In this document: positions 782 to 64,000 of the stretch, in pieces
Layout: the number at the start of each line of letters is the position of its first letter
Position numbering within the stretch: position 1 is the first letter of the stretch
Origin: Escherichia phage VerenaGrendelmeier_Bas101
Sequence record: PQ850631.1
Strand: one strand, 5' to 3'
DNA: 64,000 nucleotides
Notes under the pieces: generated by a model
The model's input: only the letters and a program-made list of their open reading frames with translations
What the model was told of the DNA's origin: nothing
The model's database searches: none
Translations under genes and position numbers: made by a program

Positions 782-788
782 GGTCATT

Positions 789-1709
789 ATGACGATACCA
801 ATCAACACATTCCCTCTATCTGGACAAACTCCAGTCTTGCCTGCGGTGTATGCTAATGGCTTGGCAATTGTCTCAGAATTCACTTCTGATAAAAACTTGA
901 TTGTTCCACTGAGCCCGCCGCTTGCATCAGGGTATAACTCAGTAGGTCAATTCTTTATGATTGGCAATGATGGCGATTCGACCAGCAAGCCTAACCTGAC
1001 ATTGTCTGTGCCTAAGATGAACATCACAGACGTTCAAACTGGCTTGACTGCATCAACAATCACCATTGCTTTTGGTGAAGCAGTGATCATAGGTATGGAG
1101 TCTGGAGGGTCGAAAAACGCTGTCGCAGTCAAAGTTGTGAAAACCAGCGGCAACCAATACACGTTACCAGCGGCAACAGCTTCCGTTCTTGGTGGCGTCA
1201 AAATAGGCACCGGAATAAGCGTAGCAGGTGATGGTACAATCAGCGTCACCCAATACTCATTGCCGATTGCCTCAGCATCTACTTTAGGCGGCGTAAAGGT
1301 CGGTACAACTCTATCAATTGATGGGTCTGGTGTGCTTAATGCAGCAGCAAGTACCGTCCAGAATGCCACTAATAGCGTCAGCAATCCTCCAACAACTTTG
1401 GTCAATCTGGCAACCTTAAACCTTCCTGCAGGGAAATGGCTTGTAACAGCAAGTCAGTTGACTGTCGCGACAGCAGGCGTTCAAGCGAATACCGGAATTA
1501 CAGTCAAATTGTCAACAAGCAATTCAGATATTACGGATGATGCATTTGCCATGTCAGCTGGAATTCGGGCTGCAGGTCGCTTCGGCGGCAACATCCCAAC
1601 AAAAGTAATTACTCTTGCCGCGCCTGGTAATGTGTATTTAAACTATCAGTGCACCGACGCGTTGACATCTACCGTTTACGGACAGATCACCGCAATTAAG
1701 CTGAACTAA
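789..1709 (+). CDS. structural protein with tandem fiber-like repeats
   Basis: GAGG RBS 5 nt upstream of ATG. Internal ~32-aa repeats (PAATASVLGGVKIGTGISVAGDGTISV / PIASASTLGGVKVGTTLSIDGSGVL) resemble fiber-type repeats. Confidence 0.55.
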   Translation: MTIPINTFPLSGQTPVLPAVYANGLAIVSEFTSDKNLIVPLSPPLASGYNSVGQFFMIGNDGDSTSKPNLTLSVPKMNITDVQTGLTASTITIAFGEAVIIGMESGGSKNAVAVKVVKTSGNQYTLPAATASVLGGVKIGTGISVAGDGTISVTQYSLPIASASTLGGVKVGTTLSIDGSGVLNAAASTVQNATNSVSNPPTTLVNLATLNLPAGKWLVTASQLTVATAGVQANTGITVKLSTSNSDITDDAFAMSAGIRAAGRFGGNIPTKVITLAAPGNVYLNYQCTDALTSTVYGQITAIKLN

Positions 1710-18632: not shown

Positions 18633-21371
18633 ATGCAAAAGTTTGACACAAACCTGTTGCAAAACCTTAAGTGGATGCAGAACAATGCACCAAACATTAC
18701 ATCTTTGGTGCAAAAGAAAAGTGACTGGTATGAAAGATACCAAGATCAGTTTTGGACTGACTGGTACAATAACATTTTTAACATTGACACTTGTGATGCA
18801 ATGGGCATTTATATTTGGTGCGACATTCTTTGCATACCAAGAGACTTTGTGGACTTAAGCAATTATGAGCACAACTGGGCGTTTGGACCGACGCGCGACA
18901 ACTTTGAAGGTGCGGACAACATCGGCGGCAACTTCTTTGGTGCTGGCGGGAAGGTTGTAAAGAATATCGAAGAAGCGCGCATACTTCTTAAGCTTCGTTA
19001 TCTGACGCTTACAAGTGATGGCCGCATCGAAAGTATCAACCGCATGCTTAAGTGGATTTTTAACCGTGGAGAGGCTTGGGATTACTCTTCATCACGCTAC
19101 GCATATGTGACCGACAATACTCAAGGTGCGGTGTCTTCATCTGAATCAACAAATGGCTCATTCCTTCTGTACGACTGGCAAGGGTCAACTGAGATTCAGC
19201 ATGATTATAAGCAGATACTTTTAAGCCATGGCAACAACGCCGGGCTGACCATCAGCGGAGTGTCAGGCGCCGTGTCACGGATGGCGCACCCAGATTGGTA
19301 CTCATGGGGGAATGGCTCCGGCACAGGTCTTGTCGGCGGCGACACCAGACAGTATGGCGGCCCTGATTACTATGGACAGTTGTGTGGTGATTACCCAGGC
19401 GAGGCCATAGAGAATTTTGCCAACGCAGTAAGGGTAGTCAAGACTGCTTCAAGCGGTGAGCCTGTGTATTCTTTGGCAAATAATCCAAGCGCCCAATCCA
19501 TTGCGCTTCCTTCGCAGGCTGGCGTTAACGTTTGTTATAGCTTCTACATAAAGGTGCTTTCTGAAAATGTCGCTTCTGTTTCGGTTACAGAGAATAGTGA
19601 TGCATCGAGTAATGGAAAGCTGTTTGACCCCGTCACTGGCCAGTTCAACTTGGACCCGTCATTGAGCTATTTCATCAAAGGCAAATTCGATGGAGTAAGA
19701 AGGGAATCAAACCGTGGTGGCATAAAAGCAATTGGCGGCGATTGGTATCGAATCTGGATTGTAGAGCAGACGGCAACCGCTGCTTCTGGAGTAAGTACCA
19801 GCTTTTCAATAGAGTTGAAGGCGACTGCCGCTGGATCAACTCAAACTCGTGAATTGCCTGAAGGGTCTGATGCTCTTTTGTTTGGATACTCGATTTGCGT
19901 CTGCGACCCTGTTCAGAATCCAAATGGACCTGAGCCTTATTTTTATGGAACGCAAAACCCTCCTTCTGACGGAACAGCAATCCTGTCTGTAACGGCGGGA
20001 ACACTCAATAACATCTCCTGTGCAAACGGACCGCTGACGACAAGAAACGGTGTAGTTGGCGAGTCATTCATGCAACCTGGCTCATCACTTGCATACTCTG
20101 GCTCAATCGGCGGCTACCCGTACCCAGGGAACGCCACGCTGATTGCAGAGACTGATGGAATCAGACGCTCATGGAACGTTAGCAGGCTGGATGGAGTACC
20201 GCCGCCGCCGACCGCCGACTATTACATGGAATACGTCATCGGACCTTATTTCGCCAACAACCTGTCTGACAACTTTAAGACGCTAGTTGGTGACAGGAAT
20301 GAAGGATTCTTGCCAGCAAATGCCGGAATACGCTGGCAGCTTTACCAAGAAGTCGCAGACTTATCTGATATTGATTTGACTGTCAGCGACATAACAGACA
20401 CGCGCGTAGGATTTGAAACGGAAGGTGTTGCGTGGATTAACACTGACGGTATCATCAGAGTTGGCGGCATCAACGAGTGGCCGCTGAACAACTTCAACGG
20501 TGTGATACGCCAGCTTGAATCTTTGAAAGGTGTAAACCAGGTCGTCGACGGCGCGCTTGTCAACGACTATTCAATCTCAAAAGCATCAAGAGATGACTTT
20601 GGTCGTGAAATACCACGCGCGGCAATCACTAACTATTGGCGCTACACACAGCCAAATGACGGTACATCTTTTGGCAATATCATTGAGGATGGCGCAAACA
20701 CTGTCACAGCGATGCCAATCAGCGGTGTGCCCAACCAGTTCCCATCATTCAAGCTTTCCGCTACAATAGGGACTGTGCCAACGTCCGGTTATGCACGCGC
20801 TGTACTTGCTACTAAATACACTGGCACCCTGACTGGCCCTTTGTCATTTATCGCAATAGTCAAAAACAACACGGTTAACGGTCAAAAACTTTTTGTAACT
20901 GTACCGGATGGGATGGGCGGCTATATCCCTAAATTCTACAACATAGGCGCAGGTGATTTGCAACGTATCGAAATTGACCTTGCCGCTGAGATTGTTGAAG
21001 GCGCTACCTGGGATGGATCAACAGGCGGCATCAGCATCGGTTTGATATCAGGGAAAGACTTGCCGACCGAAGTTGGTACTACTCTTGAACTTGATATTTT
21101 AAGCTTGATGCTTGTGTCTGGTAGTACGATGAATGCGCTTGCAATTTCAACAAGCGAAGATTTCGCAAAGAAAACTGCGACTTCTATATACATCAAAAAC
21201 CCAGGATCACTTGCCACTGGAGTTCAATTGATTGCTTCTAATGGTGATGTTGTAGCAACAGTAAACTTTCCGAGAAGTGCTGCTGGTGGTTATGTTTCAA
21301 GCATGAACATAACTGACTTAACTGGTGATTGGGCATCGACCCTTTTATCAAAAATTAAATACATCGTGTAG
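18633..21371 (+). CDS. large baseplate wedge / tail fiber-associated protein
   Basis: 912 aa, GAGGA RBS, position between baseplate J and fiber. Confidence 0.45.
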   Translation: MQKFDTNLLQNLKWMQNNAPNITSLVQKKSDWYERYQDQFWTDWYNNIFNIDTCDAMGIYIWCDILCIPRDFVDLSNYEHNWAFGPTRDNFEGADNIGGNFFGAGGKVVKNIEEARILLKLRYLTLTSDGRIESINRMLKWIFNRGEAWDYSSSRYAYVTDNTQGAVSSSESTNGSFLLYDWQGSTEIQHDYKQILLSHGNNAGLTISGVSGAVSRMAHPDWYSWGNGSGTGLVGGDTRQYGGPDYYGQLCGDYPGEAIENFANAVRVVKTASSGEPVYSLANNPSAQSIALPSQAGVNVCYSFYIKVLSENVASVSVTENSDASSNGKLFDPVTGQFNLDPSLSYFIKGKFDGVRRESNRGGIKAIGGDWYRIWIVEQTATAASGVSTSFSIELKATAAGSTQTRELPEGSDALLFGYSICVCDPVQNPNGPEPYFYGTQNPPSDGTAILSVTAGTLNNISCANGPLTTRNGVVGESFMQPGSSLAYSGSIGGYPYPGNATLIAETDGIRRSWNVSRLDGVPPPPTADYYMEYVIGPYFANNLSDNFKTLVGDRNEGFLPANAGIRWQLYQEVADLSDIDLTVSDITDTRVGFETEGVAWINTDGIIRVGGINEWPLNNFNGVIRQLESLKGVNQVVDGALVNDYSISKASRDDFGREIPRAAITNYWRYTQPNDGTSFGNIIEDGANTVTAMPISGVPNQFPSFKLSATIGTVPTSGYARAVLATKYTGTLTGPLSFIAIVKNNTVNGQKLFVTVPDGMGGYIPKFYNIGAGDLQRIEIDLAAEIVEGATWDGSTGGISIGLISGKDLPTEVGTTLELDILSLMLVSGSTMNALAISTSEDFAKKTATSIYIKNPGSLATGVQLIASNGDVVATVNFPRSAAGGYVSSMNITDLTGDWASTLLSKIKYIV

Positions 21372-21381
21372 AGGAACGGCA

Positions 21382-23169
21382 ATGCCAACACTTATTAACA
21401 GACCTTTCGCGCAAAGCGGTGATGTATCCGTGGTGCCGGATGCAAGTCCAAGCGGTTATGTGAACTTCCAGCGCGGCTACACCCCTGACTATGCACTTGC
21501 GCTGGAAGCCGGAAACGTAGCCGCGAAAGCAGTTGAACGTGAGTCGATGAACTGGTTGCTGAATCTGATCACCGACAACCTTATGTTCATACAGGACCAC
21601 GGCGCTCAACAGTATTTCTCGTCTGACTTGAAGCCAGATGGATACCCGAAAAATGCCATCGTTGTCAGCAACTCTGGCACCCCTTCAGCGCCTGAATGGC
21701 GCATTTTCCAGAGTGTGGTAGACGGCAACACCAGCGCAGTCCCAGCTAACGGCGAAACGGAATCTTGGCAGGAATTGACGCTGCCTAGCGAAGCGAGAAA
21801 ATATATTCCTATGCCTGCTGGCGGCGATGCGCAAAACCCGTATTTTGTTCGCGGACTGATTTCAAACTTTGTGGACTTTGATAATATCACGACTTCCACA
21901 ACTATTGTCATTCAATCTGATGCCGTTGCCGCTCTCTGCTCTAACATCCCGAATGCGGTTGGTGCGACGAAGGTTGCAGGACGTCTCCAGGTTTGCGCTT
22001 GGCAGGTTGATGCGCAGACTTTCGCCCTGCAACAATACACGTCAATGAACGGATATGTTTTCACCCGCTCTTATACGTCTGGTGCTTGGAGTGCTTGGAT
22101 TCAAAATGCAACTGTTCAAGACGTGCAAATCGGCACGCCGAATCTTGCATCAGGTAAAGGCGCACAAGATATAATCCTTACCGTTCCGGCAGGTTATGCA
22201 TGGCCGCCGTCAGCAGGTAGTCGCCTGACAATTGTCAATGATGTAACGACTACCGGACCTGTTACCGTGACCATTGGTGCAAACAAGGTTGCCGTCCTTG
22301 GATTCGACGGCGGCGAGTTGCCAGCAGGGTCCATCGTCGGTCTGCTGCCTTTCACCATTATTTATGACGGAACAGTCTGGCGTCTTCTTCAAGCATTCGG
22401 CGCGGCGCAAATCGGTGTTGATGCTAGTGAGCCGCAACAGTTTGTGACAAAGCGTCAACTCGATGATTTGGCTTCTAAGTTGATCACTATGGGTGATGTA
22501 TTCGAAGTCGGTGAGACTCGATTCTTGACTAATGGCACCAACCCAAACACCAAGCTTGGCGCTTATGGACAGGTGTGGACCAGATTGCCTGATAACATGG
22601 TCATCAGAACATCCGGCACGGCACGAAACGGTCTTGCCACTGGCGGCGCGGACTCCGTCACCCTTACCGCCGCCATGCTTCCTCTGCACAATCACAGCGT
22701 GAACATTACTACGCGACAAAGCGGTCCATGGTCAAATACCACTGGAGATGCGGGCAACCATAACCACACAGGCGATACCAGTCAAAACGGTGCTCACGTG
22801 CACGGAATGGATTCGGCAGGCAACCACCACCATGACAGTAGCTGGGGTGAGGCGAATACGAATGATGCGCGGTATGGCGTGTATGACAATACGCACAACA
22901 ACTTCGGCAGTCGAAAGGGCGGCGACTGGGATAACTACAAATACAACACCTCGACTAACGGCAACCACGTCCACAATATCCAATCTTCTGGGTCACACAC
23001 CCATGGGTTGAATATAAATTACGCTGGCAATCACAGCCATAGCTATACCCTTCCCGCTCACACTCACGATGTGGTCGGTAACACTGGCAACGCAGGGCAG
23101 TCTGTTCCAACGGCTGTCTCAACCCTGCCGCGATATGTCGTCTTGAACGGCTGGTACAGAAGCGCATAA
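21382..23169 (+). CDS. tail fiber protein with C-terminal His-rich HxH repeats
   Basis: GAGGA RBS; C-terminal GNHNHTGDT...AHVHGMD...NHHHD...NHVHNIQ...SHTHGL...NHSHSY...AHTHDV. Confidence 0.65.
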   Translation: MPTLINRPFAQSGDVSVVPDASPSGYVNFQRGYTPDYALALEAGNVAAKAVERESMNWLLNLITDNLMFIQDHGAQQYFSSDLKPDGYPKNAIVVSNSGTPSAPEWRIFQSVVDGNTSAVPANGETESWQELTLPSEARKYIPMPAGGDAQNPYFVRGLISNFVDFDNITTSTTIVIQSDAVAALCSNIPNAVGATKVAGRLQVCAWQVDAQTFALQQYTSMNGYVFTRSYTSGAWSAWIQNATVQDVQIGTPNLASGKGAQDIILTVPAGYAWPPSAGSRLTIVNDVTTTGPVTVTIGANKVAVLGFDGGELPAGSIVGLLPFTIIYDGTVWRLLQAFGAAQIGVDASEPQQFVTKRQLDDLASKLITMGDVFEVGETRFLTNGTNPNTKLGAYGQVWTRLPDNMVIRTSGTARNGLATGGADSVTLTAAMLPLHNHSVNITTRQSGPWSNTTGDAGNHNHTGDTSQNGAHVHGMDSAGNHHHDSSWGEANTNDARYGVYDNTHNNFGSRKGGDWDNYKYNTSTNGNHVHNIQSSGSHTHGLNINYAGNHSHSYTLPAHTHDVVGNTGNAGQSVPTAVSTLPRYVVLNGWYRSA

Positions 23170-24617: not shown

Positions 24618-24793
24618 TATAATTCACCTTTTGATTACGAATATTAATAGTATAGGCCGAAGGTTTTGAAAGTAAATAAGGCGAAAGGTAAATAAAAGAA
24701 AAGCCGGAGATTTCCGGCTTTATGTATACACTGCAGATTTAATTCTATAAAACGGCGCGATAGATTATCCGCACCAATTATTTATCCAGTGTC

Positions 24794-54326: not shown

Positions 54327-54615
54327 GCGTATAATGACGTAAGATTTGGACCTATCCGTAGTTCACTCCACACACTTCTATGGTGCGCCGCGACTGGGTT
54401 CAGTGGTACATCTTACGGATGATACGGATGATACGCGTCGCCGCTATACTTTATACAACTTTGAAAAAAACAATTAACTCCATTTTGAATTAATTTAAAT
54501 TAATTTTTTTCTACATCCTCATACTTATACTAAACTTATATTTATACGTATTATCCGTAAGATATAAGTAAAAACAAAGACTTGCGGCAATACGGATGAT
54601 ACGTCACGATACGCT
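54327..54615. repeat. second iteron-like region homologous to 1891-2160
   Basis: Shared blocks GCGTATAATGACGTA, ATCTTACGGATGATACG...GCCGC, AT-rich AATTAATTTAAA tract, TATCCGTA copies. Confidence 0.65.
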
Positions 54616-54778
54616 TCAACCAGCCAGCAGCGGCTAAGTCATTGATTTGCATAACAAGCGACGAAAGGGATGGATTTCTTTTATACGTATCAAACAGTAC
54701 ACCACGCACCACGGTCCGTTATCCATCCAGCACTATGATTTGTGTACGTTTATAGCCATAATGAACATCAATCTGCAC

Positions 54779-54807
54779 TTGAATATAATGTCCATCCATT
54801 GTATAAT
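54779..54807 (+). promoter_or_regulatory. sigma70-like promoter TTGAAT-17-TATAAT
   Basis: -35 at 54779-54784, -10 at 54802-54807, upstream of the TerS-like ORF. Confidence 0.35.
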
Positions 54808-54817
54808 TCACACTATT

Positions 54818-56298
54818 AATTTGCACTATGGGATTTTGCACTATGAGTCAAGATTATGTAGCGATGCCTGAAGACTTTGAAGACCCGCGATTCGCAGAGC
54901 ACAATCAGGCTTTATTCGATGAGTTCATTGACCTTGTTATTCAGGGCCATGACATGCGCGCAGCTTTTGCACTAGTATTTGGAATGGAAGTTGCAACGGA
55001 TAACTACACTGGCCAGCGAATCCTTTGCACGCAACGCAATCCATACTACAAGATGCGCTTCAAAAAGCGTATGGAAGAGATGCCACTCAAGGATTTGTGG
55101 AGCGTAAAAGGTGCAATTCACAATTTGGTCAAGCTTGTGCGTGATCCAGAAGTCGCGGCGTCAGCCAAGCTTAATGCTATTCGTGAACTGAATATCATCT
55201 ATGGCATCACGATGATTGATGAAAACGGCAATAGTAAAATGGGCCGTTCTATGGACGATTTCTACAAGGATTTTGGAGAGGCGGCCAAAGAAGGCGAGCA
55301 ATTCTCCCGCCACTAGCCAATTTGCACTATAAAACGGCCCTAGAACACATTGTCTCCACTTCTAGGGCCATCGGTAATACGACGGGGAAGGTTGCAACCG
55401 TAAACGCGTTAGAAAGTGTATTATTATAAGTCATCTTTTAGTCACCTTACGTAACAATTTACGACCTTCAACCGTCCAATCGAACGACTCCACCAGCAGA
55501 TTCGCACTATAACCTAAGATGATGCGCCCTTTCTCGTTATCGACCCGCCAACAAGTCTCGAATAGCATTCGATTTGCACTATTAACTATCGCCGCAACGC
55601 GCGTTGGGTAAACGCAATTTGCACTATGGTCGTAAAGGGATAAGGTGCGACCACTTCCGATGGACAATGTAGCGATGAGAATAAGCGTATTCATAAGCCA
55701 CCAATTTGCACTATGAAAAGCGACCCCGAAGGGCCGCCATTCGATTAGATAATCTGGAATGTGTAGGACTTGTTGCCGAACTCAAAGTTCAAGCGTCCAG
55801 CTTCTTTAAGCTTCATGCGGAAGCGAATGTGCTTACTATCCGGTAAGCCCAGCGCGGCGAACGCCACGCGGACCGATTTGAACTCGCCTACACCCTCGAC
55901 CATAACGCCGTTACGCGTGAGACGCTTTTGCGCCACTTCCTTGTTATCCCAACTTTTTGCAATACCTTCGCTATTCGAACGGCGATGGGAAGGAGTTCCA
56001 TTTTGCACTACGCAATTTGCACTATCGTTTAGGCCGCTTTTAACGAAGGCTTCATACTCTTCGTCGGTCATCGCGTCGAGTTCTTCCTGGGTCGGCTCGG
56101 CCTTTTTAACGACCGCACGCGCCTTATGCGTTTTTACATCGCTGGACACTTCCTCGCGCGGCTTCGCGTCGGGAATGGGCGATTCGTTGGACGGCTCATC
56201 GAGCGCGTTTAAGGACTCGATTAACGCGATTACGCGAGTCTCGGCGGTACGGCGGTCCGCAAATTTCTTAATCGGCTTCGAACCGGAATTTGCATTAT
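54818..56298 (+). repeat. strand-specific array of about 10 copies of the 12-mer AATTTGCACTAT (and one-mismatch variants)
   Basis: Copies at 54818, 54833, 55319, 55499, 55571, 55616, 55703, 55999, 56014, 56287, all in the same orientation, irregular spacing, crossing coding and non-coding DNA. Confidence 0.75.
54828..55316 (+). CDS. terminase small subunit-like DNA-binding protein (orphan; start ambiguous 54828/54843)
   Basis: HTH-like GHDMRAAFALVFG followed by LKDLWSVKGAIHNLVKLVRDPEVAASAKLNAIRELNIIYGIT; no large terminase gene adjacent. Confidence 0.35.
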   Translation: MGFCTMSQDYVAMPEDFEDPRFAEHNQALFDEFIDLVIQGHDMRAAFALVFGMEVATDNYTGQRILCTQRNPYYKMRFKKRMEEMPLKDLWSVKGAIHNLVKLVRDPEVAASAKLNAIRELNIIYGITMIDENGNSKMGRSMDDFYKDFGEAAKEGEQFSRH

Positions 56299-56371
56299 AA
56301 AATGCAACGAGGTCGGCGGTCTTAGTTGCGATAACGTCGCCGCTAGTCGAGAAACGATTTAAGCTAACCAT
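55745..56371 (-). CDS. hypothetical protein (208 aa)
   Basis: Long ORF with codon usage distinct from the structural genes (AAG, CGC, TCG-rich); contains embedded 12-mer copies. Confidence 0.4.
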   Translation of the reverse strand: MVSLNRFSTSGDVIATKTADLVAFYNANSGSKPIKKFADRRTAETRVIALIESLNALDEPSNESPIPDAKPREEVSSDVKTHKARAVVKKAEPTQEELDAMTDEEYEAFVKSGLNDSANCVVQNGTPSHRRSNSEGIAKSWDNKEVAQKRLTRNGVMVEGVGEFKSVRVAFAALGLPDSKHIRFRMKLKEAGRLNFEFGNKSYTFQII

Positions 56372-56451
56372 AATGAACTCCTATTTGTTAGGGCGCTAGG
56401 CGCGAAAGAATTTTATTAAAGCGCCGCGCGCGACGCTCTAAAAATCCTCTC

Positions 56452-56766
56452 TTACTCTTCGTCGTCTTCGATTAATTCGAGGGCGAAGGCGTAAGCTTTG
56501 CTATCGTAATTAACTAAAACGGCGAGTTCGAACTCGTTAATAAACGCCGTTTTACCGCATAAATTTAATTCCGCATCGACTTCGAAGAATCCGTTTTCGT
56601 CGCGCTCTAAGCGAGAAGCAGCGAGTTGCTCGATTACCGTCGCGTCGTTAATTTCTTCGCCTAAGCGAACGCCGGAGAATTTCGCGAGAATTTCGCCGTA
56701 AGTAAGCGTAACGCCCTGGACTTCGGCGGTTGCGTTTTCGAGGGTAAAGCGGGTAACGATAGCCAT
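56452..56766 (-). CDS. small acidic protein (104 aa)
   Basis: Strongly acidic, ends ...LIEDDEE. Confidence 0.45.
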   Translation of the reverse strand: MAIVTRFTLENATAEVQGVTLTYGEILAKFSGVRLGEEINDATVIEQLAASRLERDENGFFEVDAELNLCGKTAFINEFELAVLVNYDSKAYAFALELIEDDEE

Positions 56767-56906
56767 AATAAACTCCTAGTTGGGAGAGGCGTTAACGACC
56801 TATTCGTTAACTCATCCCGTCCCGATATGAGTACATTATAATATAGTGTAGAAAAAAGTAAAGCACTTTTTCGATAAAAATGCGATAAATTATTTTATCT
56901 TTTTTC

Positions 56907-56934
56907 TTTACTTCTTCGTACACTCGCGTATACT
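56907..56934 (+). promoter_or_regulatory. sigma70-like promoter TTTACT-16-TATACT with conserved GTACACT spacer and TTGTTTATATCGAGA leader
   Basis: Near-identical architecture to 57305-57333. Confidence 0.45.
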
Positions 56935-56988
56935 TGTTTATATCGAGACGGGCGATGGCCCTTCCTTCTACTAGCATCGGGAGTTTTA

Positions 56989-57293
56989 TTATGACCACTT
57001 TAATCTCTTCTATCCTTACTTACGACGAAGACCGTTTAACCGTTCGCTCTCTTATCGCCGCCGTTAACGCGGAACTAGAATCCACCATTATTAAGGTCCG
57101 CGCGGTCGCTTTCGTCGGCCTTTCCTTCGACGATATTAAGTACGCCGAACGTAGCGCCATCCGCTTCGCGAAGACCGACGACGAAGCCGTTACCCTTATC
57201 GAGACGGTTACGCCGCGCGGCGAAGCGTTAATTATCGTCGAGTATATCGACGTAGAAGGCGATAAGGCTTATAAATATTTTATTGCAGAATAA
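56989..57293 (+). CDS. small acidic protein (101 aa)
   Basis: ATG at 56989; acidic. Confidence 0.45.
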
Positions 57294-57304
57294 CGAAAAA
57301 GTGC

Positions 57305-57333
57305 TTTACTTCTTCGTACACTAAGACTATAAT
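57305..57333 (+). promoter_or_regulatory. sigma70-like promoter TTTACT-17-TATAAT, paralog of 56907-56934
   Basis: Shares CTTTACTTCTTCGTACACT and the GTTTTATATCGAGAG leader. Confidence 0.45.
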
Positions 57334-57400
57334 GTTTTATATCGAGAGGGGATGAGGTAGCGAATAGGTCGCTACCCGCCCGACCAACTAGGAGATTATT

Positions 57401-57691
57401 ATGATTACTTTAGCCGCTATCCGTTCCGCTCGCGTCGAGACTTCCGAAAACTCTAACGTATTTGGCGAAACCTTAGAGAGCGTTTATCTCTCTAACGTAG
57501 ACGCAACTATCGAACCTATTTATGAGCCGATCAACTTCCTCGACCTTTACAAGTATCGCGACGAGGACATCGTATCATCCCGCGTAACGATTAACGGCTT
57601 CGTCTATACGATTACCGAAATCGGCGGCGAATATCTCGCTGTACCGCAACTCGGCGGCGAAGTAACTTATTTTAAAATTGTCTCCTTATAA
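57401..57691 (+). CDS. small acidic protein (96 aa)
   Basis: GGAG RBS, ATG at 57401. Confidence 0.45.
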   Translation: MITLAAIRSARVETSENSNVFGETLESVYLSNVDATIEPIYEPINFLDLYKYRDEDIVSSRVTINGFVYTITEIGGEYLAVPQLGGEVTYFKIVSL

Positions 57692-57710
57692 TATCCTTCC
57701 GTTACTAATA

Positions 57711-57736
57711 GGCCGCGCTTAGTCGCGGCTTTTCTT
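57711..57736 (+). terminator. rho-independent terminator
   Basis: GCCGCG...CGCGGC stem followed by TTTTCTT. Confidence 0.6.
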
Positions 57737-57854
57737 CGTCCCTATCTCGATGCGCTTCTCCGCGAAAACTCCTTTATCCTTCCCTTCGTCGTCGCATAAT
57801 CTTCGTCGAGATGCGCCTTAGTTCGCATAACAGGTATTACGTTAAATGGAGAAC

Positions 57855-57931
57855 ATCGCGTAAGTCCTTGTTTTATATAGACACCTATATCGGACCGTTA
57901 GGGCGGGTCGCGTAAGTCGTTGTTTTATAAA
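57855..57931 (+). repeat. direct repeat pair TCGCGTAAGTC(C/G)TTGTTTTATA
   Basis: Copies at 57855-57879 and 57907-57931; shares TTGTTTTATA with the leaders of the two promoters upstream. Confidence 0.55.
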
Positions 57932-58055
57932 GGCGCAAAACTTTCCCTTCGTTCCGAACTAAAACGAGGAATATGCCGACCCTTCGCCCGAAAATAGTAC
58001 GCATGCGAAATCACATGCATCTCGAATAATCCCCACCGATATTATCCTACACGCA

Positions 58056-58118
58056 ATCATTCGCTTTCGAATCATTATGCTTCATATTATTATGCGTCGA
58101 ATCATTCGCTTTCGAATT
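58056..58118 (+). repeat. direct repeat pair AATCATTCGCTTTCGAAT
   Basis: Copies at 58056-58073 and 58101-58118, each with a TTCGAA palindrome. Confidence 0.55.
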
Positions 58119-58205
58119 GTAACGCTGGAAACTGTAACGGCGATTGATTATTGCGTTCGTGTGGTTTTTAGGGCATGGGTCTTTTGGTGCGTTTTGGTGC
58201 TTGAT

Positions 58206-58318
58206 GGAATTTGCGGTACACTAATCAAAATACGACACATTTGGTCCACTAACTTTTCAAAGAAAAAGTCCTAGACAGTACCGTACTATTTTGTACCCAC
58301 AGGAATTTGCAGTACACT
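58206..58318 (+). repeat. direct repeat pair GGAATTTGC(G/A)GTACACT
   Basis: Copies at 58206-58222 and 58302-58318; combines the AATTTGC core with the GTACACT promoter-spacer motif. Confidence 0.5.
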
Positions 58319-58388
58319 CCTGCGCGGCAGGCAAAATAAAGGGCCGCCCTAAGCGACCCACGATTCATGGTTAAATCAGCAACACCCA

Positions 58389-58769
58389 CTATTCACTCTT
58401 ATGGGCATCACCAAATCCATCAGCAATCTGGCTGATCAACGACTCAATGGACACAGTTTTACCAATTGATCGAGCGGTTATGGCGAGCATATTATCAATC
58501 AAACCACGATTGGCTTCACATGTTCCAGGCTTTAATTCATCTTTAGGACCACCAAAAAGCTGGTCGCGCAGACTTTCAAGAGAACGCTCAATATTTTCCA
58601 ACTTCTCTTCTAAATCGGATTGGCGACGTAAAACCCACGTCAAGTCACGGTTGCCAACTTCCAATCCATCAGAATAGCAAGGTGGAGCGTCAATTTTGAT
58701 GCTGGAACCAAAAGCAGTGCCGCTGCCTTTAGTATAAGTATGGCTCATAGAATCATTTTTATTTGACAT
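58389..58769 (-). CDS. hypothetical protein (126 aa)
   Basis: Start set at internal ATG with AAAGG RBS; the longer ORF-track N-terminus reads through a terminator hairpin. Confidence 0.4.
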   Translation of the reverse strand: MSNKNDSMSHTYTKGSGTAFGSSIKIDAPPCYSDGLEVGNRDLTWVLRRQSDLEEKLENIERSLESLRDQLFGGPKDELKPGTCEANRGLIDNMLAITARSIGKTVSIESLISQIADGFGDAHKSE

Positions 58770-59589: not shown

Positions 59590-59877
59590 TTATCCATTAG
59601 AGCCTTCTCCGCTGTTAATGTTGTCCAAAATCAAGGTTGGAATTTCATCTTGAGTCCTGACTTTGTAATGCGAAGGCATTTTGCTTTCTAACAATGCCTG
59701 TTCAGCTTCTCCCTTTGTCTCAAAGAGCGGGATGCACCAATCAACTGCATTGCCGTGTTCATCACCCTTGACGGCCTTCAAAAAGACAAGGCGCTTGTCC
59801 GCAGGGTCGATGCCGCAAATTAAGTATTTTGGAAGAGATTTTGCTTTCTGAGCTTTATCAATATCTTCAAATTTCAT
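59590..59877 (-). CDS. hypothetical protein (95 aa)
   Basis: Start at ATG with GAGGTG RBS. Confidence 0.4.
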   Translation of the reverse strand: MKFEDIDKAQKAKSLPKYLICGIDPADKRLVFLKAVKGDEHGNAVDWCIPLFETKGEAEQALLESKMPSHYKVRTQDEIPTLILDNINSGEGSNG

Positions 59878-59958
59878 AAAACACCTCACTTGTTAACGTA
59901 TAATGAGTATAACTTAATAGCGCATAAAGTAAAGGCGCTTTTCAGCGCCTTGAGTGAA

Positions 59959-62292
59959 TTATTTCGCTGCTTTTAGCGCGGCTATCTCTGCCTCTAGTGA
60001 CTCGACCTTTTTCATCAACTCCTGTACCACGTGCATCGTATCCAAAAGCATAGGTGTCGTATCAAGTTGTTTTTGTTCAACTTCGACACCTTCACTCGGA
60101 TAGAATTTAATCGTCTTAACATACAAAGGATCAATAATCTCTGCCTGTTGAGCGATAATACCCCTTCTTATCCTTTCCTTTTCATCATTGTTGTATATGA
60201 ACGTTACATACTCCAGCGATGAAAGGTTGCTCCATGCTTTTTCAACCGTTCCTGGTTTTATGTCATGCTTCAAATTCTCATCAGAGATGGCATTCTTCTG
60301 AAGCGTGTAAAAACTATCTGATCCAAGAATTGACACAGAGAAGAATACATCATGAGAGTTTGGCTGGATGTTCATCCTTGTTTGGTATTGCGCGTTATCG
60401 TCACCTACGACAAGCCAAGTCCCCTGAGCAAAACTTCCATTATTATTGTGGATCAAACCGTGATGAAGAGTGGTCGCATAGCCTGTATCTACTTGTTGAC
60501 CGCCGCTAAAAAGGCTGTTGAATGCATAGTTTTGACCTATTGACTGTCTCACCGTTGCATAAGTGCCGATTCTTGTGCCAGTCTCATTCCAAGACATGAG
60601 ACTTCCGTATCTTGCTGCGTATCGGTCGCTACTCAGGGTTCCTGAATCATCAAACGCAAGGTCTTTTGTAACTCCTTTTGTTTTGTTATATACAGATAAA
60701 ATTGCATAATAAAAGCCATCCATGTATGCATCGCACCGAAGCCCAGCATCAGCCTCAACGACGGTTCCGATTTTGTATTGAGCCCTTATCTGACCAGATG
60801 ATGCCTTGACTCCAGAACCTGGGCGAACGGAGTCAGCATTGATGACCTGCCATTGCGTATCCGCGGCAACGAATCCACCCGATGCACGAATCACCCAAAC
60901 TCCGACGAAGTTGCGCGGAACAATTTCCGCTGCTGAACGACCATAAACAGGACTGCAGCGAGAAGCGTCAAAGTTTGTTTGTATGAATCTTGACCCAGAG
61001 CCTGCTGCCGCAGGAGAGTCACCCGAAGTTATTGACTGAAAAGCACCATTAGTTGCCACCTGGCTTGGTGCAGAAGCCAGCGTCACCATTGTGTGCGGCG
61101 CTGAGTAAATTATATTTGGAGCGCCTGATTCAGACACAACCCCGTTGGATGATGAATTCCCACCGTCACCCCTGCCAAATAAGGCCTGTATGGAACCAGT
61201 TTGAACACCGTTCCTGTCAGGCACTCGAAACGTCGTCGTTCCGTTGCCCAGAGAATATTTGCCGCGTTTTGCTGGGTCTGCTAACCAATCTGCATCAGCA
61301 ATAGGTGAAAGCATTTGCGCATACGCCCAAAGCTCAGGCCAATCAGCACGATTGAGTAGTTGACCGTCAGCGACGACTTCATAAGGTTGAATATAAGCGC
61401 GGCTGTCGCGTAAGTGGAAGTCGCCGACGCCATAGTTCATCACGCCGTTCATACTTGGGCCAACGGTGCCTGTGTTCACCAAGTTCTCAACCCAACGCTT
61501 CGTAGTAGCATCATAGTCGTTAACTGGGTCGCCAGCGAGCGGCGTTGATCCTTGAGGGCGTATGTTCAACCAAGCCTGAGCATTATCTGCAGAGCCTGTG
61601 CCGCCCATGGAAGTTGGCACGATGTCTTGATCAGCGACTGCGCCAAATCCAAAGGCCGACTTCACACCATCAATAGTTGTCTGGCCTGTGCCGCCGTTAG
61701 CTACTGGGATTACGGTTGACTCGGAATAAATCATGACCCAAGAAGACCATGATTGAGTTTCCATGGTGAATCTTCTTTGATATGTATTGTTGGAATCGAA
61801 TGTCGTATATCGTTGAATGCAACTTTCTGATATAACGCCTGTCTGCAATACTTCTAATACTCCTGCTTGCTGCGCAGGGTAATTCAAAGCTGAAGATGCA
61901 CCACCGTTTGAATTTTGGAAGTACTGCCCAAACCAAGTCCCTGTAAGCGCATTAAGATTCATGCCGGATGGAACAATCCCAAAGTTTCGGACAGTGCCCG
62001 TCAAAGTCGCGGCAGTAGTTCGAATGGAAAGCATATCGCCCGCCGCCCATGCACGAGCTGCAGTACCTTCCTGCGCACGCTGCACGGTTAGAACGTTTCC
62101 AACAACGGCTGTTACTGTGACGATTTCGAACTGGAGGCCTGTTGCAGCGTCGACGATTGTCGCCACTACACGCTCGTTTGCGCCCAAGGTCGGAAAGCCC
62201 GACCCTGAGCGGATTGTGATTGTGGTGCCTGAAGTCGTCGTTGGCTGAGCGAGCGCGACCTCAAAGTTGTTTTTGAATATTAGCCTTGGCAT
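59959..62292 (-). CDS. tail fiber / tailspike protein with C-terminal intramolecular chaperone (peptidase S74-like) domain
   Basis: 777 aa; C-terminal SDENLKHDIKP...LEYVTFIYNND...RRGIIAQQAEIIDPLYV and terminal coiled coil. Confidence 0.65.
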   Translation of the reverse strand: MPRLIFKNNFEVALAQPTTTSGTTITIRSGSGFPTLGANERVVATIVDAATGLQFEIVTVTAVVGNVLTVQRAQEGTAARAWAAGDMLSIRTTAATLTGTVRNFGIVPSGMNLNALTGTWFGQYFQNSNGGASSALNYPAQQAGVLEVLQTGVISESCIQRYTTFDSNNTYQRRFTMETQSWSSWVMIYSESTVIPVANGGTGQTTIDGVKSAFGFGAVADQDIVPTSMGGTGSADNAQAWLNIRPQGSTPLAGDPVNDYDATTKRWVENLVNTGTVGPSMNGVMNYGVGDFHLRDSRAYIQPYEVVADGQLLNRADWPELWAYAQMLSPIADADWLADPAKRGKYSLGNGTTTFRVPDRNGVQTGSIQALFGRGDGGNSSSNGVVSESGAPNIIYSAPHTMVTLASAPSQVATNGAFQSITSGDSPAAAGSGSRFIQTNFDASRCSPVYGRSAAEIVPRNFVGVWVIRASGGFVAADTQWQVINADSVRPGSGVKASSGQIRAQYKIGTVVEADAGLRCDAYMDGFYYAILSVYNKTKGVTKDLAFDDSGTLSSDRYAARYGSLMSWNETGTRIGTYATVRQSIGQNYAFNSLFSGGQQVDTGYATTLHHGLIHNNNGSFAQGTWLVVGDDNAQYQTRMNIQPNSHDVFFSVSILGSDSFYTLQKNAISDENLKHDIKPGTVEKAWSNLSSLEYVTFIYNNDEKERIRRGIIAQQAEIIDPLYVKTIKFYPSEGVEVEQKQLDTTPMLLDTMHVVQELMKKVESLEAEIAALKAAK

Positions 62293-62330
62293 TTTACGGT
62301 CCTCGTTTTGTCGACAACCGTATTATAACC

Positions 62331-62672
62331 TTAATTTCTTTTGAGAGGAATATGACGGTGGCTGCCATTATTTGGTTTAATAATGAGCATAAAAACGATT
62401 AGAAAGATGATGGCTGATATACTTAATTCAATCAGCGCGGCTTGAGATATAGATTGATCTTCATGATACTGCTTTTGCATTTCTGCTTTCTTCTGAGCGC
62501 AAACTTCAGGTGATATGTAATCACCTTTTGAGTTGCCATAATAAATTTCGCCGTTTTCAGAAATCAGTCTGCCGCAAATATCCGTTTCAGCCTTTGCGCT
62601 CGACATCATAATAACGGTGCCGATGATAGCGGCGATAGTCCAGATTAACAGTTGTGATAAAGTGTTGTTCAT
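62331..62672 (-). CDS. membrane protein with N-terminal signal peptide and C-terminal TM anchor
   Basis: Start at ATG with AGAGG RBS; MNNTLSQLLIWTIAAIIGTVIMMSSAKA; C-terminal LIELSISAIIFLIVFMLII. Confidence 0.45.
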   Translation of the reverse strand: MNNTLSQLLIWTIAAIIGTVIMMSSAKAETDICGRLISENGEIYYGNSKGDYISPEVCAQKKAEMQKQYHEDQSISQAALIELSISAIIFLIVFMLIIKPNNGSHRHIPLKRN

Positions 62673-62868
62673 GATAACCTCTTTAAATTCCCTTCCCATA
62701 TCGGGAAGGGTGAATATTATTCTACTCGAAAGAACAGGCGCGTACCACACAGCGAGTCCCAACGGCCTTCACCATCCCATACCGACCCAACGCCAGCGGT
62801 GATAACCCCAGCAGAATTGGCGGCATTGGCCCAGGCGAGACGTTTCAGCTTCCAACTGCACCAACGAT

Positions 62869-63105
62869 TCACAGGTCATCTCCTAACTGTAAAATAGAGC
62901 CTGCATAAATGATCGCTAGAGCTAAAGGCGCACCGCTTCCAACTTCTCTATTCTCTTTAATTTGAAGAGTATCCTTAAGGAATTGAAGTTGCACGTTAAA
63001 TTCACTTTCGACTCCAAGAGATACGGCCAATCCCCTTATGGACTCAGCAAAAACTTTTGTCAAGACTTCTTGGGGGATATCAACTGTAATTTTTTCACTT
63101 GCCAT
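62869..63105 (-). CDS. hypothetical protein
   Basis: Start at ATG (alternative TTG at 63123). Confidence 0.35.
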   Translation of the reverse strand: MASEKITVDIPQEVLTKVFAESIRGLAVSLGVESEFNVQLQFLKDTLQIKENREVGSGAPLALAIIYAGSILQLGDDL

Positions 63106-63316
63106 TTTCTTTCCACTCCACAAATGTGCTATCGCTTGTTTCTCTATTTAGCAGGTATCTGCCGCGCATTCCATGAAGGCTAAACTCAACCGTCGATGGA
63201 TTAGATTTTGAAAGCCATATAGGTTGCCCGTCGAATGGACCGCCTATGCACGTGTATTTAGCTTTTGGCTCACTCCTTTTGGGCCGTTTCGCCCGCTCTT
63301 TGATTGATAGTCTCAT
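63095..63316 (-). CDS. hypothetical basic protein
   Basis: 73 aa ORF. Confidence 0.35.
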   Translation of the reverse strand: MRLSIKERAKRPKRSEPKAKYTCIGGPFDGQPIWLSKSNPSTVEFSLHGMRGRYLLNRETSDSTFVEWKENGK

Positions 63317-63531
63317 CAGTCTTCACCTTGAGATTCCAGACAAGTAAGGACAAGCCAAGTCATCGGAAGAATCAAAACCAGAGAAATGAGGGACCAGATA
63401 GACCAGCACAGGATGACAGACTTGAATGTGTGAACGTCGCCAAACGCAGCAGTAAAACAGAATCCCATTACAAATGCAATAGCTGTGGAATGGTTATCTA
63501 TGGCTTTGATGGCGCGGTCGATGAGTTTCAT
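63316..63531 (-). CDS. small two-TM membrane protein (holin-like candidate)
   Basis: 71 aa, two hydrophobic segments (AIAFVMGFCFTAAFG; ILCWSIWSLISLVLILPMTWLVL), charged C-terminus. Confidence 0.4.
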   Translation of the reverse strand: MKLIDRAIKAIDNHSTAIAFVMGFCFTAAFGDVHTFKSVILCWSIWSLISLVLILPMTWLVLTCLESQGED

Positions 63532-63619
63532 ATTACCTCCGATTTTGAGTTAATATGATTATAACGCAGAGTTTCAGAAAGGCAAACTTTTTGTGAATTA
63601 TGCCGTCCATGGCATCGTA

Positions 63620-63850
63620 TCAGTGTGAAGACGCAATTAATGTGCCACTTCCCTTTGCGAAAATCTCAACGCCTGGCGGGATTGTGACTGTACCAACAAC
63701 TGCGATTCCGATCAAATTGTCATCGGCCTTTTCCCCAAAACAAATCTCAGCGGCACCGCCGCGAACTTGAATAAGTGCTCCTGATACGTTTTCAGCAACA
63801 GAGATTACGGAAGTATAAGAGGGAGTGAGTTGAATGTTGACTAGGGCCAT
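63620..63850 (-). CDS. hypothetical protein
   Basis: AGGAG RBS upstream of ATG on minus strand. Confidence 0.4.
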   Translation of the reverse strand: MALVNIQLTPSYTSVISVAENVSGALIQVRGGAAEICFGEKADDNLIGIAVVGTVTIPPGVEIFAKGSGTLIASSH

Positions 63851-63891: not shown

Positions 63892-64000
63892 GAAAGATCA
63901 CCCTTTATCCACTACTAAGCTGGAATCATAATTTTACTTGATATAGCTTGCACAAGCAAACTATAATATGAATAAAATATCAACACATAATTGGAAAGTC

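What the first reader, a model, noticed from the sequence alone, without database searches (positions are those of the whole stretch)
59959..62292. Second tail fiber/tailspike with intramolecular chaperone domain, encoded in a separate leftward block
A 777-aa protein ends with a peptidase S74-type auto-cleaving chaperone domain and terminal coiled coil, typical of L-shaped fibers and endosialidase-type spikes. It lies over 35 kb from the structural operon, on the opposite strand, among small membrane-protein genes, suggesting a horizontally acquired host-range cassette and a virion with two receptor-binding proteins.
Basis: partly seen in the sequence, partly recalled or inferred. Interest (0 to 1): 0.5.

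Follow-up and report, generated by a model that had tools for sequence, protein, structure and literature searches.

The report
Known variable tail fibre of Wifcevirus
The gene encodes the already-described variable, host-recognising tail fibre of Wifcevirus phages of E. coli; it is real and correctly read as a fibre, but it lies next to the structural genes rather than 35 kb away, so the finding is ordinary.

Summary
The 777-aa ORF at 59959-62292 (-) is real and carries a bona fide C-terminal Peptidase_S74 intramolecular chaperone. Ser670 and Lys675 are invariant, and a terminal amphipathic helix follows. The window is a near-complete Wifcevirus genome (E. coli myovirus, about 68 kb). The protein is 96.6% identical to the fibre of phage Bas98.

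This fibre family was described in 2025 (Humolli et al., PLoS Biol) as the variable "T-shaped" second fibre of the genus. It has a conserved N-terminal anchor, two exchangeable receptor-binding domains and the chaperone. Orthologues were the top-scoring proteins in mass spectrometry of CsCl-purified particles (Necel et al. 2020), alongside the conserved fibre of the tail module.

The "35 kb away" claim comes from where the window was cut. The window ends one base before the terminase gene, so the fibre gene starts 1.7 kb upstream of it, divergently transcribed.

The locus is syntenic in all ten relatives examined. Only the distal modules are exchanged, including with T5-like phages. It is a fibre, not an enzymatic spike.

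One loose end remains: chaperone-region peptides are abundant in the published particle proteome, so chaperone release is unproven.

The parts
59959..62292 (-). Complete CDS of the variable ('T-shaped') receptor-binding tail fibre: 777 aa, 83.5 kDa.
   Evidence: ORF. PHROG 6921 E=9e-198. 96.6% aa identity to Bas98_0110. Mass.
61993..62292 (-). aa 1-100: N-terminal anchor domain, presumed to attach the fibre to the baseplate.
   Evidence: 96-99% identical in 10 Wifcevirus fibres. Homologous to the N-terminus of the 439-aa fibre protein 8jov_1 (present as 18 chains), E=1e-16 with the profile. Similar N-termini occur in many unrelated phage fibres.
61693..61992 (-). aa 101-200: pyocin-knob-like domain, variable between relatives.
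   Evidence: Matches R2 pyocin fibre 6ct8/6cl6 by sequence profile, E=2e-8, and by Foldseek. pLDDT 73-84. 44-97% identity within the genus.
60853..61590 (-). aa 235-480: first receptor-binding domain ('gp12-like RBD1'). It has a highly conserved framework (aa 235-375 and 462-480) around a variable stretch (aa 376-450).
   Evidence: Conservation profile and invariant columns. About 80% identity to DT57C LtfA residues 524-876. The Pfam Collar hit is sub-threshold only.
60286..60852 (-). aa 481-669: second, hypervariable receptor-binding domain ('T5-like RBD2').
59962..60285 (-). aa 670-777: Peptidase_S74 intramolecular chaperone (12.4 kDa). It includes the Ser670 codon (60283-60285), the Lys675 codon (60268-60270) and the terminal helix aa 745-776.
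62300..62304 (-). Shine-Dalgarno sequence GAGGA of the fibre gene.
   Evidence: Read directly from the sequence.
59932..59951 (-). Intrinsic-terminator-like hairpin (AAGGCGCT-GAAA-AGCGCCTT) 8 nt after the stop codon, marking the end of the leftward transcription unit.
   Evidence: Scan. Sequence. The surrounding 34 nt are identical in 8 of 10 relatives despite the hypervariable 3' end of the gene. Annotated as a terminator in WFC.
63558..63585 (-). Sigma-70-like promoter candidate (TTGCCT-16-TATAAT) that would drive the five small genes and the fibre gene leftward.
   Evidence: Scan. Conserved with 0-2 mismatches over 46 nt in 10 relatives. Function is inferred, not shown.
62331..63531 (-). 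Five small genes upstream in the same leftward unit, of 113, 51, 77, 73 and 71 aa. The first and last encode membrane proteins.
   Evidence: ORFs. TM scan. Orthologues annotated in all relatives. No PHROG or Pfam hits.
63938..63967 (+). Sigma-70-like promoter candidate (TTGATA-18-TATAAT, 11 of 12 matches) pointing at the terminase gene, which begins just beyond the window.
   Evidence: Scan. Conserved in 8 of 10 relatives.
21382..23169 (+). The other, conserved tail fibre (595 aa), encoded at the end of the tail/baseplate module.
   Evidence: PHROG 5717 'tail protein' E=2e-173. 95-99.5% identical within the genus. The N-terminal two thirds are about 32% identical to Pbunavirus tail fibres. Detected by MS as gp63 in vB_Eco4M-7.

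Best explanation
This is the variable receptor-binding tail fibre of a Wifcevirus, an E. coli myovirus of about 68 kb. It is an allele almost identical to those of phages Bas98 and Bas100.

Proposed mechanism:
- Three chains assemble into a fibre.
- The conserved N-terminal 100 residues fix it to the baseplate. This is inferred.
- A pyocin-knob-like domain and two successive receptor-binding domains then follow. The first has a conserved gp12-type framework with a variable stretch. The second is a hypervariable beta-rich tip.
- These present the surfaces that recognise host surface glycans, most likely O-antigen. By near-identity with Bas98/Bas100 it is probably the O16 type. This is inferred from published phenotypes of those phages.
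- The C-terminal 108 residues are an S74 intramolecular chaperone. It nucleates trimer folding through its helical bundle and is expected to cut itself off in front of Ser670, using the Ser670-Lys675 dyad. The domain and dyad are shown here. Cleavage is not.

Genome context:
- The gene is the last one of a short leftward unit that starts next to, and diverges from, the terminase and morphogenesis module.
- It has kept that place throughout the genus.
- New host specificities arise by recombination that replaces the distal modules, with donors that include T5-like and other siphoviruses.
- The virion also carries a second, conserved fibre inherited with the tail module.
For: - Identity of the phage.
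- Full-length PHROG tail-fibre match.
- S74 domain above threshold in 50 of 50 homologues.
- Invariant S670 and K675.
- Distal region homologous to the O-antigen-binding LtfA of DT57C, about 80% identity over aa 218-561, profile E=1e-195.
- N-terminal anchor conserved at 96-99%, distal parts down to 6%; conservation profile.
- Synteny in 10 genomes.
- 84% nucleotide identity to T5-like fp01 over window 60578-61551.
- The same distal module appears in a 60-kb siphovirus contig, behind a proximal side-fibre gene.
- Orthologues gp27 (vB_Eco4M-7) and gp24 (ECML-117) were found in CsCl-purified particles. gp27 had the top score, 34 peptides and 80% coverage.
- Published description of the two fibres, the T-shape prediction and the O16 dependence of Bas98-101: PMC11990801.
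Against: - Nothing was measured on this phage itself. The proteomics comes from orthologues that are only about 57-58% identical overall.
- The monomer structure model is unreliable for aa 190-482, so the gp12-like fold of RBD1 was not verified. The Pfam Collar hit is below threshold (13.6 versus 24 bits).
- Chaperone release is doubtful. In vB_Eco4M-7, peptides after the predicted cut site make up 500 of 2013 spectra, with peak areas like those of the mature part.
- The attachment site on the baseplate is unknown.
- The candidate promoter is of the host sigma-70 type, which is unusual for a structural gene. Its activity is untested.
Confidence: 0.88

Rival explanations
1. The fibre does not bind the baseplate directly. 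It is mounted on the conserved 595-aa fibre or on another baseplate-distal protein, making a branched fibre as in DT57C (LtfA/LtfB) or phage G7C.
For: The distal part is homologous to LtfA, a component of a branched fibre. In siphovirus and podovirus relatives the same module hangs on a proximal fibre. The BASEL authors state that the relationship of the two fibre sets is unclear.
Against: This protein has its own conserved N-terminal anchor. That anchor is homologous to the N-terminus of a 439-aa fibre protein present as 18 chains in the solved assembly 8jov. The authors of PMC11990801 predict direct baseplate attachment.
Confidence: 0.2
2. The whole gene is a recently acquired horizontal cassette.
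For: Pbunavirus relatives lack any fibre gene at the syntenic place. They also lack the anchor domain. The distal part is shared with unrelated phages.
Against: The position is the same in 10 of 10 Wifcevirus genomes. The anchor is 96-99% conserved. The flanking promoter and terminator are conserved. GC content is unremarkable at 0.47. More than 100 homologues lie on contigs of about 68 kb. Acquisition, if any, predates the genus; only the modules are recent.
Confidence: 0.08
3. It is an enzymatic tailspike (endosialidase or another depolymerase) rather than a fibre.
For: The S74 chaperone was first found on endosialidases. One relative (SP13) is annotated 'endo-N-acetylneuraminidase'.
Against: No sialidase, beta-helix or pectate-lyase domain is found in the protein or in any of 50 homologues. 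All PHROG matches are fibre families. The closest characterised homologue, LtfA, is a non-enzymatic O-antigen-binding fibre.
Confidence: 0.03
4. The chaperone domain stays on the mature fibre, either uncleaved or cut but still bound, and forms part of the fibre tip in the virion.
For: In CsCl-purified vB_Eco4M-7, six tryptic peptides downstream of the dyad were found. They gave 500 of 2013 spectra (25%) for 14% of the length. Their areas of 1.8e7 to 8.1e9 fall within the range of mature-part peptides.
Against: The same preparation is rich in the protease/scaffold protein gp40 and contains helicase and other non-structural proteins, so precursors and debris may co-purify. The catalytic dyad is invariant, which argues for selection on cleavage. 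In ECML-117 none of the four chaperone-region peptides searched was found, but coverage was only 37%.
Confidence: 0.2

Closest known systems
Variable 'T-shaped' tail fibre of Wifcevirus (Bas98_0110, Bas100_0105, Bas99 'Gp114'; Humolli et al. 2025, PMC11990801)
   Same: Same gene at the same genomic place. 96.6% aa identity to Bas98 and 92-99% per domain to Bas100. Same order of anchor, knob, RBD1, RBD2 and S74 chaperone.
   Different: Only allelic differences. The published T-shape and dual-RBD model is an AlphaFold-Multimer prediction and could not be reproduced here because only monomers can be folded.
LtfA, lateral tail fibre protein A of T5-like phage DT57C (PDB 8hqz chain d; Golomidova 2016, Ayala 2023)
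   Same: aa 218-561 are about 80% identical to LtfA 524-876. The profile aligns aa 232-778 to LtfA 527-1074, E=1e-195. LtfA also has a C-terminal S74 chaperone and an O-antigen-binding role.
   Different: LtfA has a different N-terminus, with LtfC-binding strands and a long coiled-coil shaft, and it carries a second protein, LtfB. Only its N-terminus is experimentally resolved. The T5-like fp01 fibre N-terminus is 6% identical to this protein.
Peptidase S74 intramolecular chaperones of K1F endosialidase (3gw6), GA-1 neck appendage (3gud), T5 pb1 (4uw8), and the MyRF ICA domain (7dc3)
   Same: Pfam S74 above threshold, Ser-Lys dyad, the same fold, and a C-terminal helix that forms the trimer bundle.
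   Different: The passenger domain here is a two-RBD fibre, not a sialidase. Self-cleavage and release are unproven, and published proteomics of an orthologue still sees the domain.
R2-type pyocin fibre knob (6ct8, 6cl6)
   Same: aa 102-218 match by sequence profile (E=2e-8) and by fold. NCBI names relatives 'pyocin knob domain-containing S74 family peptidase'.
   Different: In pyocins the knobs sit near the receptor-binding foot. Here the knob is proximal, right after the anchor.
Tail fibre of Pbunavirus (PB1-like Pseudomonas phages)
   Same: It corresponds to the other fibre of this phage (21382-23169), whose N-terminal two thirds are about 32% identical.
   Different: Pbunavirus has no counterpart of the S74 fibre at the syntenic place.

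Membership tests
Peptidase S74 / intramolecular chaperone (IMC) domain | Match to the family HMM above the curated threshold, at the C-terminus | tested here: met
   PF13884 at 38.9 bits versus a cut-off of 22, aa 670-722. 50 of 50 homologues match.
Peptidase S74 / intramolecular chaperone (IMC) domain | Catalytic serine-lysine dyad (S-x4-K) at the domain start | tested here: met
   S670-DENL-K675. Both residues are invariant in 50 sequences although the rest of the domain varies.
Peptidase S74 / intramolecular chaperone (IMC) domain | Fold of solved IMC domains, including the terminal helix | tested here: met
Peptidase S74 / intramolecular chaperone (IMC) domain | Autoproteolytic release from the mature trimer | tested here: inconclusive
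   Not testable on sequence. Published MS of the orthologue gp27 shows abundant post-dyad peptides in CsCl-purified material, but the preparation also contains assembly intermediates.
Wifcevirus variable (T-shaped) tail fibre | Genus-conserved N-terminal anchor | tested here: met
   aa 1-100 are 96-99% identical to 10 Wifcevirus fibres.
Wifcevirus variable (T-shaped) tail fibre | Syntenic position: leftward unit next to the terminase gene | tested here: met
   Same gene order in Bas98, Bas99, Bas100, FEC19, WFC, WFH, ECML-117, Mansfield, ECO71P1 and Eco4M-7. The window junction is mapped.
Wifcevirus variable (T-shaped) tail fibre | Gp12-like (tail collar) RBD1 | tested here: inconclusive
   Pfam Collar scores 13.6 bits versus a cut-off of 24. 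32 of 50 homologues give weak hits, best E=0.003. No gp12 hit in PDB sequence searches. The model is unreliable here.
Wifcevirus variable (T-shaped) tail fibre | T5 pb1-like RBD2 | tested here: inconclusive
Wifcevirus variable (T-shaped) tail fibre | T-shaped homotrimer | not testable with these tools
   Only monomer prediction is available. The claim rests on AlphaFold-Multimer models in PMC11990801.
Virion structural protein | Presence in purified particles | not testable with these tools
   Shown for orthologues only: gp27 of vB_Eco4M-7 (34 peptides, top score) and gp24 of ECML-117.
Endosialidase-type or depolymerase tailspike | Catalytic sialidase or beta-helix domain | tested here: not met
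   No such Pfam domain in the protein or in 50 homologues. No such fold among the confident hits.
T5-type L-shaped tail fibre (pb1 / LtfA) | N-terminal LtfC-binding region and long coiled-coil shaft | tested here: not met
   The alignment to LtfA begins only at its residue 524. The N-terminus is 6% identical to the T5-like fp01 fibre.

The most novel reading that the evidence does not exclude
In this fibre family the S74 chaperone may not be discarded after folding. It may remain on the virion fibre, uncleaved or cut but bound, as part of the distal tip, unlike the T5 pb1 and endosialidase paradigm. A weaker add-on: the fibre is co-transcribed with small membrane proteins from a host-type promoter, outside the late module.
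Probability: 0.2. Interest if true: 0.45.

Novelty: already known. Interest (0 to 1): 0.15.

Why it matters
As it stands the result is a correct annotation of a published protein family. It is useful for predicting host range: this allele matches the O16-dependent Bas98/Bas100 fibres. It also confirms that Wifcevirus specificity evolves by swapping the distal fibre modules between myo-, sipho- and podoviruses, around a fixed anchor and a fixed promoter/terminator frame. That makes the locus a convenient scaffold for engineered host-range changes.

The only point that could add knowledge is whether the chaperone domain is really released in this family.

Tried and rejected
- Full-length AlphaFold2 monomer model. 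Mean pLDDT was 51.8, which is useless for aa 190-482, so RBD1 could not be tested. Only hits within the confident segments were used.
- NCBIfam scan: no hit.
- PHROG and Pfam scans of six small ORFs around the fibre gene: no hits.
- Search for the tryptic peptide spanning the cleavage site (SISDER/STSDER) in the published MS tables. It was absent, but it is too short to be informative.
- Literature search for PDB 8jov: nothing relevant, so I did not rely on the identity of that phage.
- The idea of a compositionally foreign island was rejected, because GC is 0.47 versus about 0.46 overall.
- The idea that the gene is an early or non-structural protein because of its neighbours was rejected on the proteomic evidence.
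Full report
**1. The observation**

The minus strand carries an ATG-started ORF at 59959..62292 encoding 777 aa. A GAGGA ribosome-binding site lies 7 nt upstream. An intrinsic-terminator-like hairpin follows 8 nt after the TAA stop.

Pfam Peptidase_S74 matches aa 670-722 at 38.9 bits, against a gathering score of 22. The match begins exactly at the motif S670-DENL-K675. In an alignment of 50 homologues, Ser670 and Lys675 are invariant although the rest of the domain varies. All 50 homologues pass the S74 model.

The last 33 residues are predicted as one helix with pLDDT 83-93. They have a heptad pattern. This helix is the trimer-bundle helix that belongs to S74 chaperones rather than an additional feature. 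The core observation is therefore correct and far beyond chance: PHROG 6921 'tail fiber protein' matches the full length at E=9e-198.

**2. What the window is**

The region is 91% identical in DNA to E. coli phages HansTraber (Bas100) and HermannAdler (Bas98). It matches about 40 other phage records, most of them Wifcevirus. The protein is 96.6% identical to Bas98_0110. More than 100 homologues lie on contigs of about 68 kb in public assemblies.

Alignment to Bas98 and WFC places the window as follows.
- Window base 1 corresponds to Bas98 base 4695.
- Window base 64000 corresponds to the last base before the terminase large-subunit start codon.
- The window is thus a 64-kb cut of a genome of about 68.5 kb. 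It lacks only the terminase gene, two small genes, the portal-like gene and the first 71 nt of the next gene.

**3. The '35 kb' separation comes from where the window was cut**

Across the junction, the fibre start codon (62292) is about 1.7 kb from the terminase start, on the opposite strand.

WFC has a 3784-bp direct terminal repeat, with both copies 100% identical (PMC6563267; verified). That repeat maps to window 54482-58265. If this phage has the same ends, the fibre gene lies 5.5-7.8 kb from the left end, directly beside the packaging and morphogenesis module.

**4. Anatomy of the unit**

A conserved sigma-70-like site (TTGCCT-16-TATAAT, 63585-63558) is followed by five small genes and then the fibre gene. 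The unit ends at the hairpin at 59951-59932.

The promoter-like site differs by 0-2 bases over 46 nt in ten relatives. The 34 nt around the terminator are identical in eight of ten, even though the adjacent 3' end of the fibre gene is hypervariable. A second conserved promoter-like site (63938-63967) points at the terminase gene.

Only two of the small ORFs in this minus-strand block have clear transmembrane segments (62331-62672 and 63316-63531). 'Among small membrane-protein genes' is therefore only partly right. Promoter function and timing are inferred, not shown.

**5. Domain map and evolution**

PDB sequence searches split the protein into modules.
- aa 1-100 resemble the N-terminus of a 439-aa fibre protein that is present as 18 chains in entry 8jov.
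- aa 102-218 resemble the R2 pyocin fibre knob.
- aa 232-777 are homologous to the C-terminal half of LtfA of the T5-like phage DT57C (profile E=1e-195; about 80% identity over aa 218-561).

LtfA is the O-antigen-recognising lateral fibre whose C-terminal region determines host specificity (PMC4728585). Only its N-terminus has been resolved experimentally (PMC10713586).

Comparison with ten Wifcevirus fibres gives these identities (finer profile):

| Segment (aa) | Identity to Wifcevirus fibres |
|---|---|
| 1-100 | 96-99% |
| 101-200 | 44-97% |
| 235-400 | 80-98% |
| 401-560 | 22-50% in most, 92-99% in the closest |
| 561-669 | 6-18%, except 99% in Bas98/Bas100 |
| 670-735 | 23-94% |

The fibre of the T5-like phage fp01 is 88-92% identical over aa 235-560. 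It shares 84% nucleotide identity over window 60578-61551. The same distal module, without anchor and knob, also sits behind a lambda-Stf-like proximal fibre gene on a 60-kb siphovirus contig.

The gene occupies the same place in all ten genomes. Its GC content is unremarkable. In the distantly related Pbunavirus 14-1, the corresponding leftward block beside the terminase gene holds only small genes.

The other fibre of this phage (21382-23169, 595 aa) behaves differently. It is 95-99.5% conserved in the genus, and its N-terminal part is shared with about 290 Pseudomonas phage records, the listed ones being Pbunavirus-sized genomes of about 65 kb.

Reading: the S74 fibre gene was added once in the Wifcevirus lineage. 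It is now a fixed core gene whose distal modules are replaced by recombination.

**6. Structure tests**

The full-length monomer model is poor (pLDDT 51.8). It is usable only for the knob, for aa 490-550 and for the chaperone. Foldseek hits within those parts are the MyRF ICA domain, the R2 pyocin fibre and the endosialidase chaperone.

The chaperone fold is therefore verified. The 'T5-like' RBD2 and the 'gp12-like' RBD1 (Pfam Collar sub-threshold) are not verified here. No enzymatic domain exists, so this is a fibre and not a spike.

**7. What was already published**

Humolli et al. 2025 (PMC11990801) describe Wifcevirus as carrying two fibres.
- One is conserved and sits in the tail locus.
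- The other is a variable 'T-shaped' fibre with an N-terminal anchor, a Gp12-like RBD1, a T5-like RBD2 and a C-terminal chaperone.
- Its RBDs are exchanged horizontally with Tequintavirus and Gordonclarkvirinae.
- Bas98-101 depend entirely on O16-type O-antigen.

Necel et al. 2020 (PMC7048862) analysed CsCl-purified vB_Eco4M-7 and ECML-117 by mass spectrometry.
- gp27 is the syntenic orthologue carrying the same S74 annotation. It had the highest score of all proteins, with 34 peptides and 80% coverage.
- The conserved fibre gp63 was found too.
- ECML-117 gp24, also syntenic, was detected with 18 peptides.

**8. One loose end**

In the peptide table of that study, six tryptic peptides lying after the predicted cut site of gp27 account for 500 of 2013 spectra. 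Their peak areas (1.8e7 to 8.1e9) fall within the range of the mature-part peptides. The chaperone region is thus not depleted in the preparation.

The preparation is also rich in the protease/scaffold protein and contains some non-structural proteins. Precursors may therefore co-purify. The site-spanning peptide is too short to be informative. Whether the chaperone is released in this family remains open. I give retention a probability of about 0.2.

**9. Verdict**

The finding is a real and correctly recognised gene, but it is an already described fibre family in an already described genomic arrangement. The apparent remoteness from the structural genes is an artefact of the window cut. The 'acquired cassette' idea holds only for the distal modules and, at a much deeper level, for the origin of the gene in the genus. 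Interest is low.

Noticed in passing
window 63620-63850 (-): A 76-aa ORF between the leftward unit and the terminase gene lies in a 265-bp presence/absence polymorphism. It is present here and in Bas100, ECML-117, Mansfield and Eco4M-7. It is absent in Bas98, Bas99, FEC19, WFC, WFH and ECO71P1. Its orthologues (gp32 of Eco4M-7, score 1002; gp30 of ECML-117) were detected in CsCl-purified particles. It has no family match. It may be an accessory virion protein.
   Followed up: partly
window 59590-59877 (-): A 95-aa gene lies just downstream of the fibre terminator, behind its own promoter-like site. Its orthologue gp26 of Eco4M-7 was detected in the particle preparation with 5 peptides and 62% coverage. 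It has no family match and no transmembrane segment.
   Followed up: partly
window 24649-24676 (-), 56835-56862 (-), 56907-56934 (+), 57305-57333 (+), 59906-59933 (-): The promoter-like motif TTTACT-N16/17-TATA(A/C)T occurs 5 times, against 0.03 expected. Three copies lie in the stretch that corresponds to the terminal repeat, one at the head of the leftward replication block and one right after the fibre terminator. It may be a phage-specific promoter class.
   Followed up: partly
window 54482-58265: This stretch corresponds to the 3784-bp direct terminal repeat of phage WFC, so the physical genome ends probably lie here. It includes a gene-poor part at about 57700-58389 that is bounded by terminator-like hairpins.
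   Followed up: partly
window 780-1709 (+): The 309-aa protein annotated 'tail fiber protein' in Bas98 (Bas98_0006) sits among head genes. It matches Pfam Phage_head_fibr above threshold (28.2 versus 24.6 bits), so it is more likely a head fibre or decoration protein. The likely orthologue gp38 of Eco4M-7 is very abundant in the particle proteome.
   Followed up: no
L006 (Bas100), terminator after the fibre gene: The terminator hairpin of Bas100 has the same stem as in the other genomes, but its 4-nt loop is reverse-complemented (GAAA to TTTC).
   Followed up: no
L016 6001-7743 (ENA contig k141_85545, 59.9 kb): A 580-aa S74 protein is 81% identical to the distal two thirds of this fibre. It lies in a siphovirus-type tail locus, after a J-like tip protein, a 701-aa protein with the lambda side-fibre N-domain and a 91-aa gene. 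The same receptor-binding module is thus mounted on a separate proximal fibre there.
   Followed up: partly
window 18633-21371 (+): A 912-aa protein with an N-terminal DUF2612 domain lies between the Baseplate_J gene and the conserved fibre gene. It is annotated as hypothetical in Bas98 and was detected in particles as gp62 of Eco4M-7. It is probably a large baseplate or fibre-network component and a candidate docking partner for one of the fibres.
   Followed up: no
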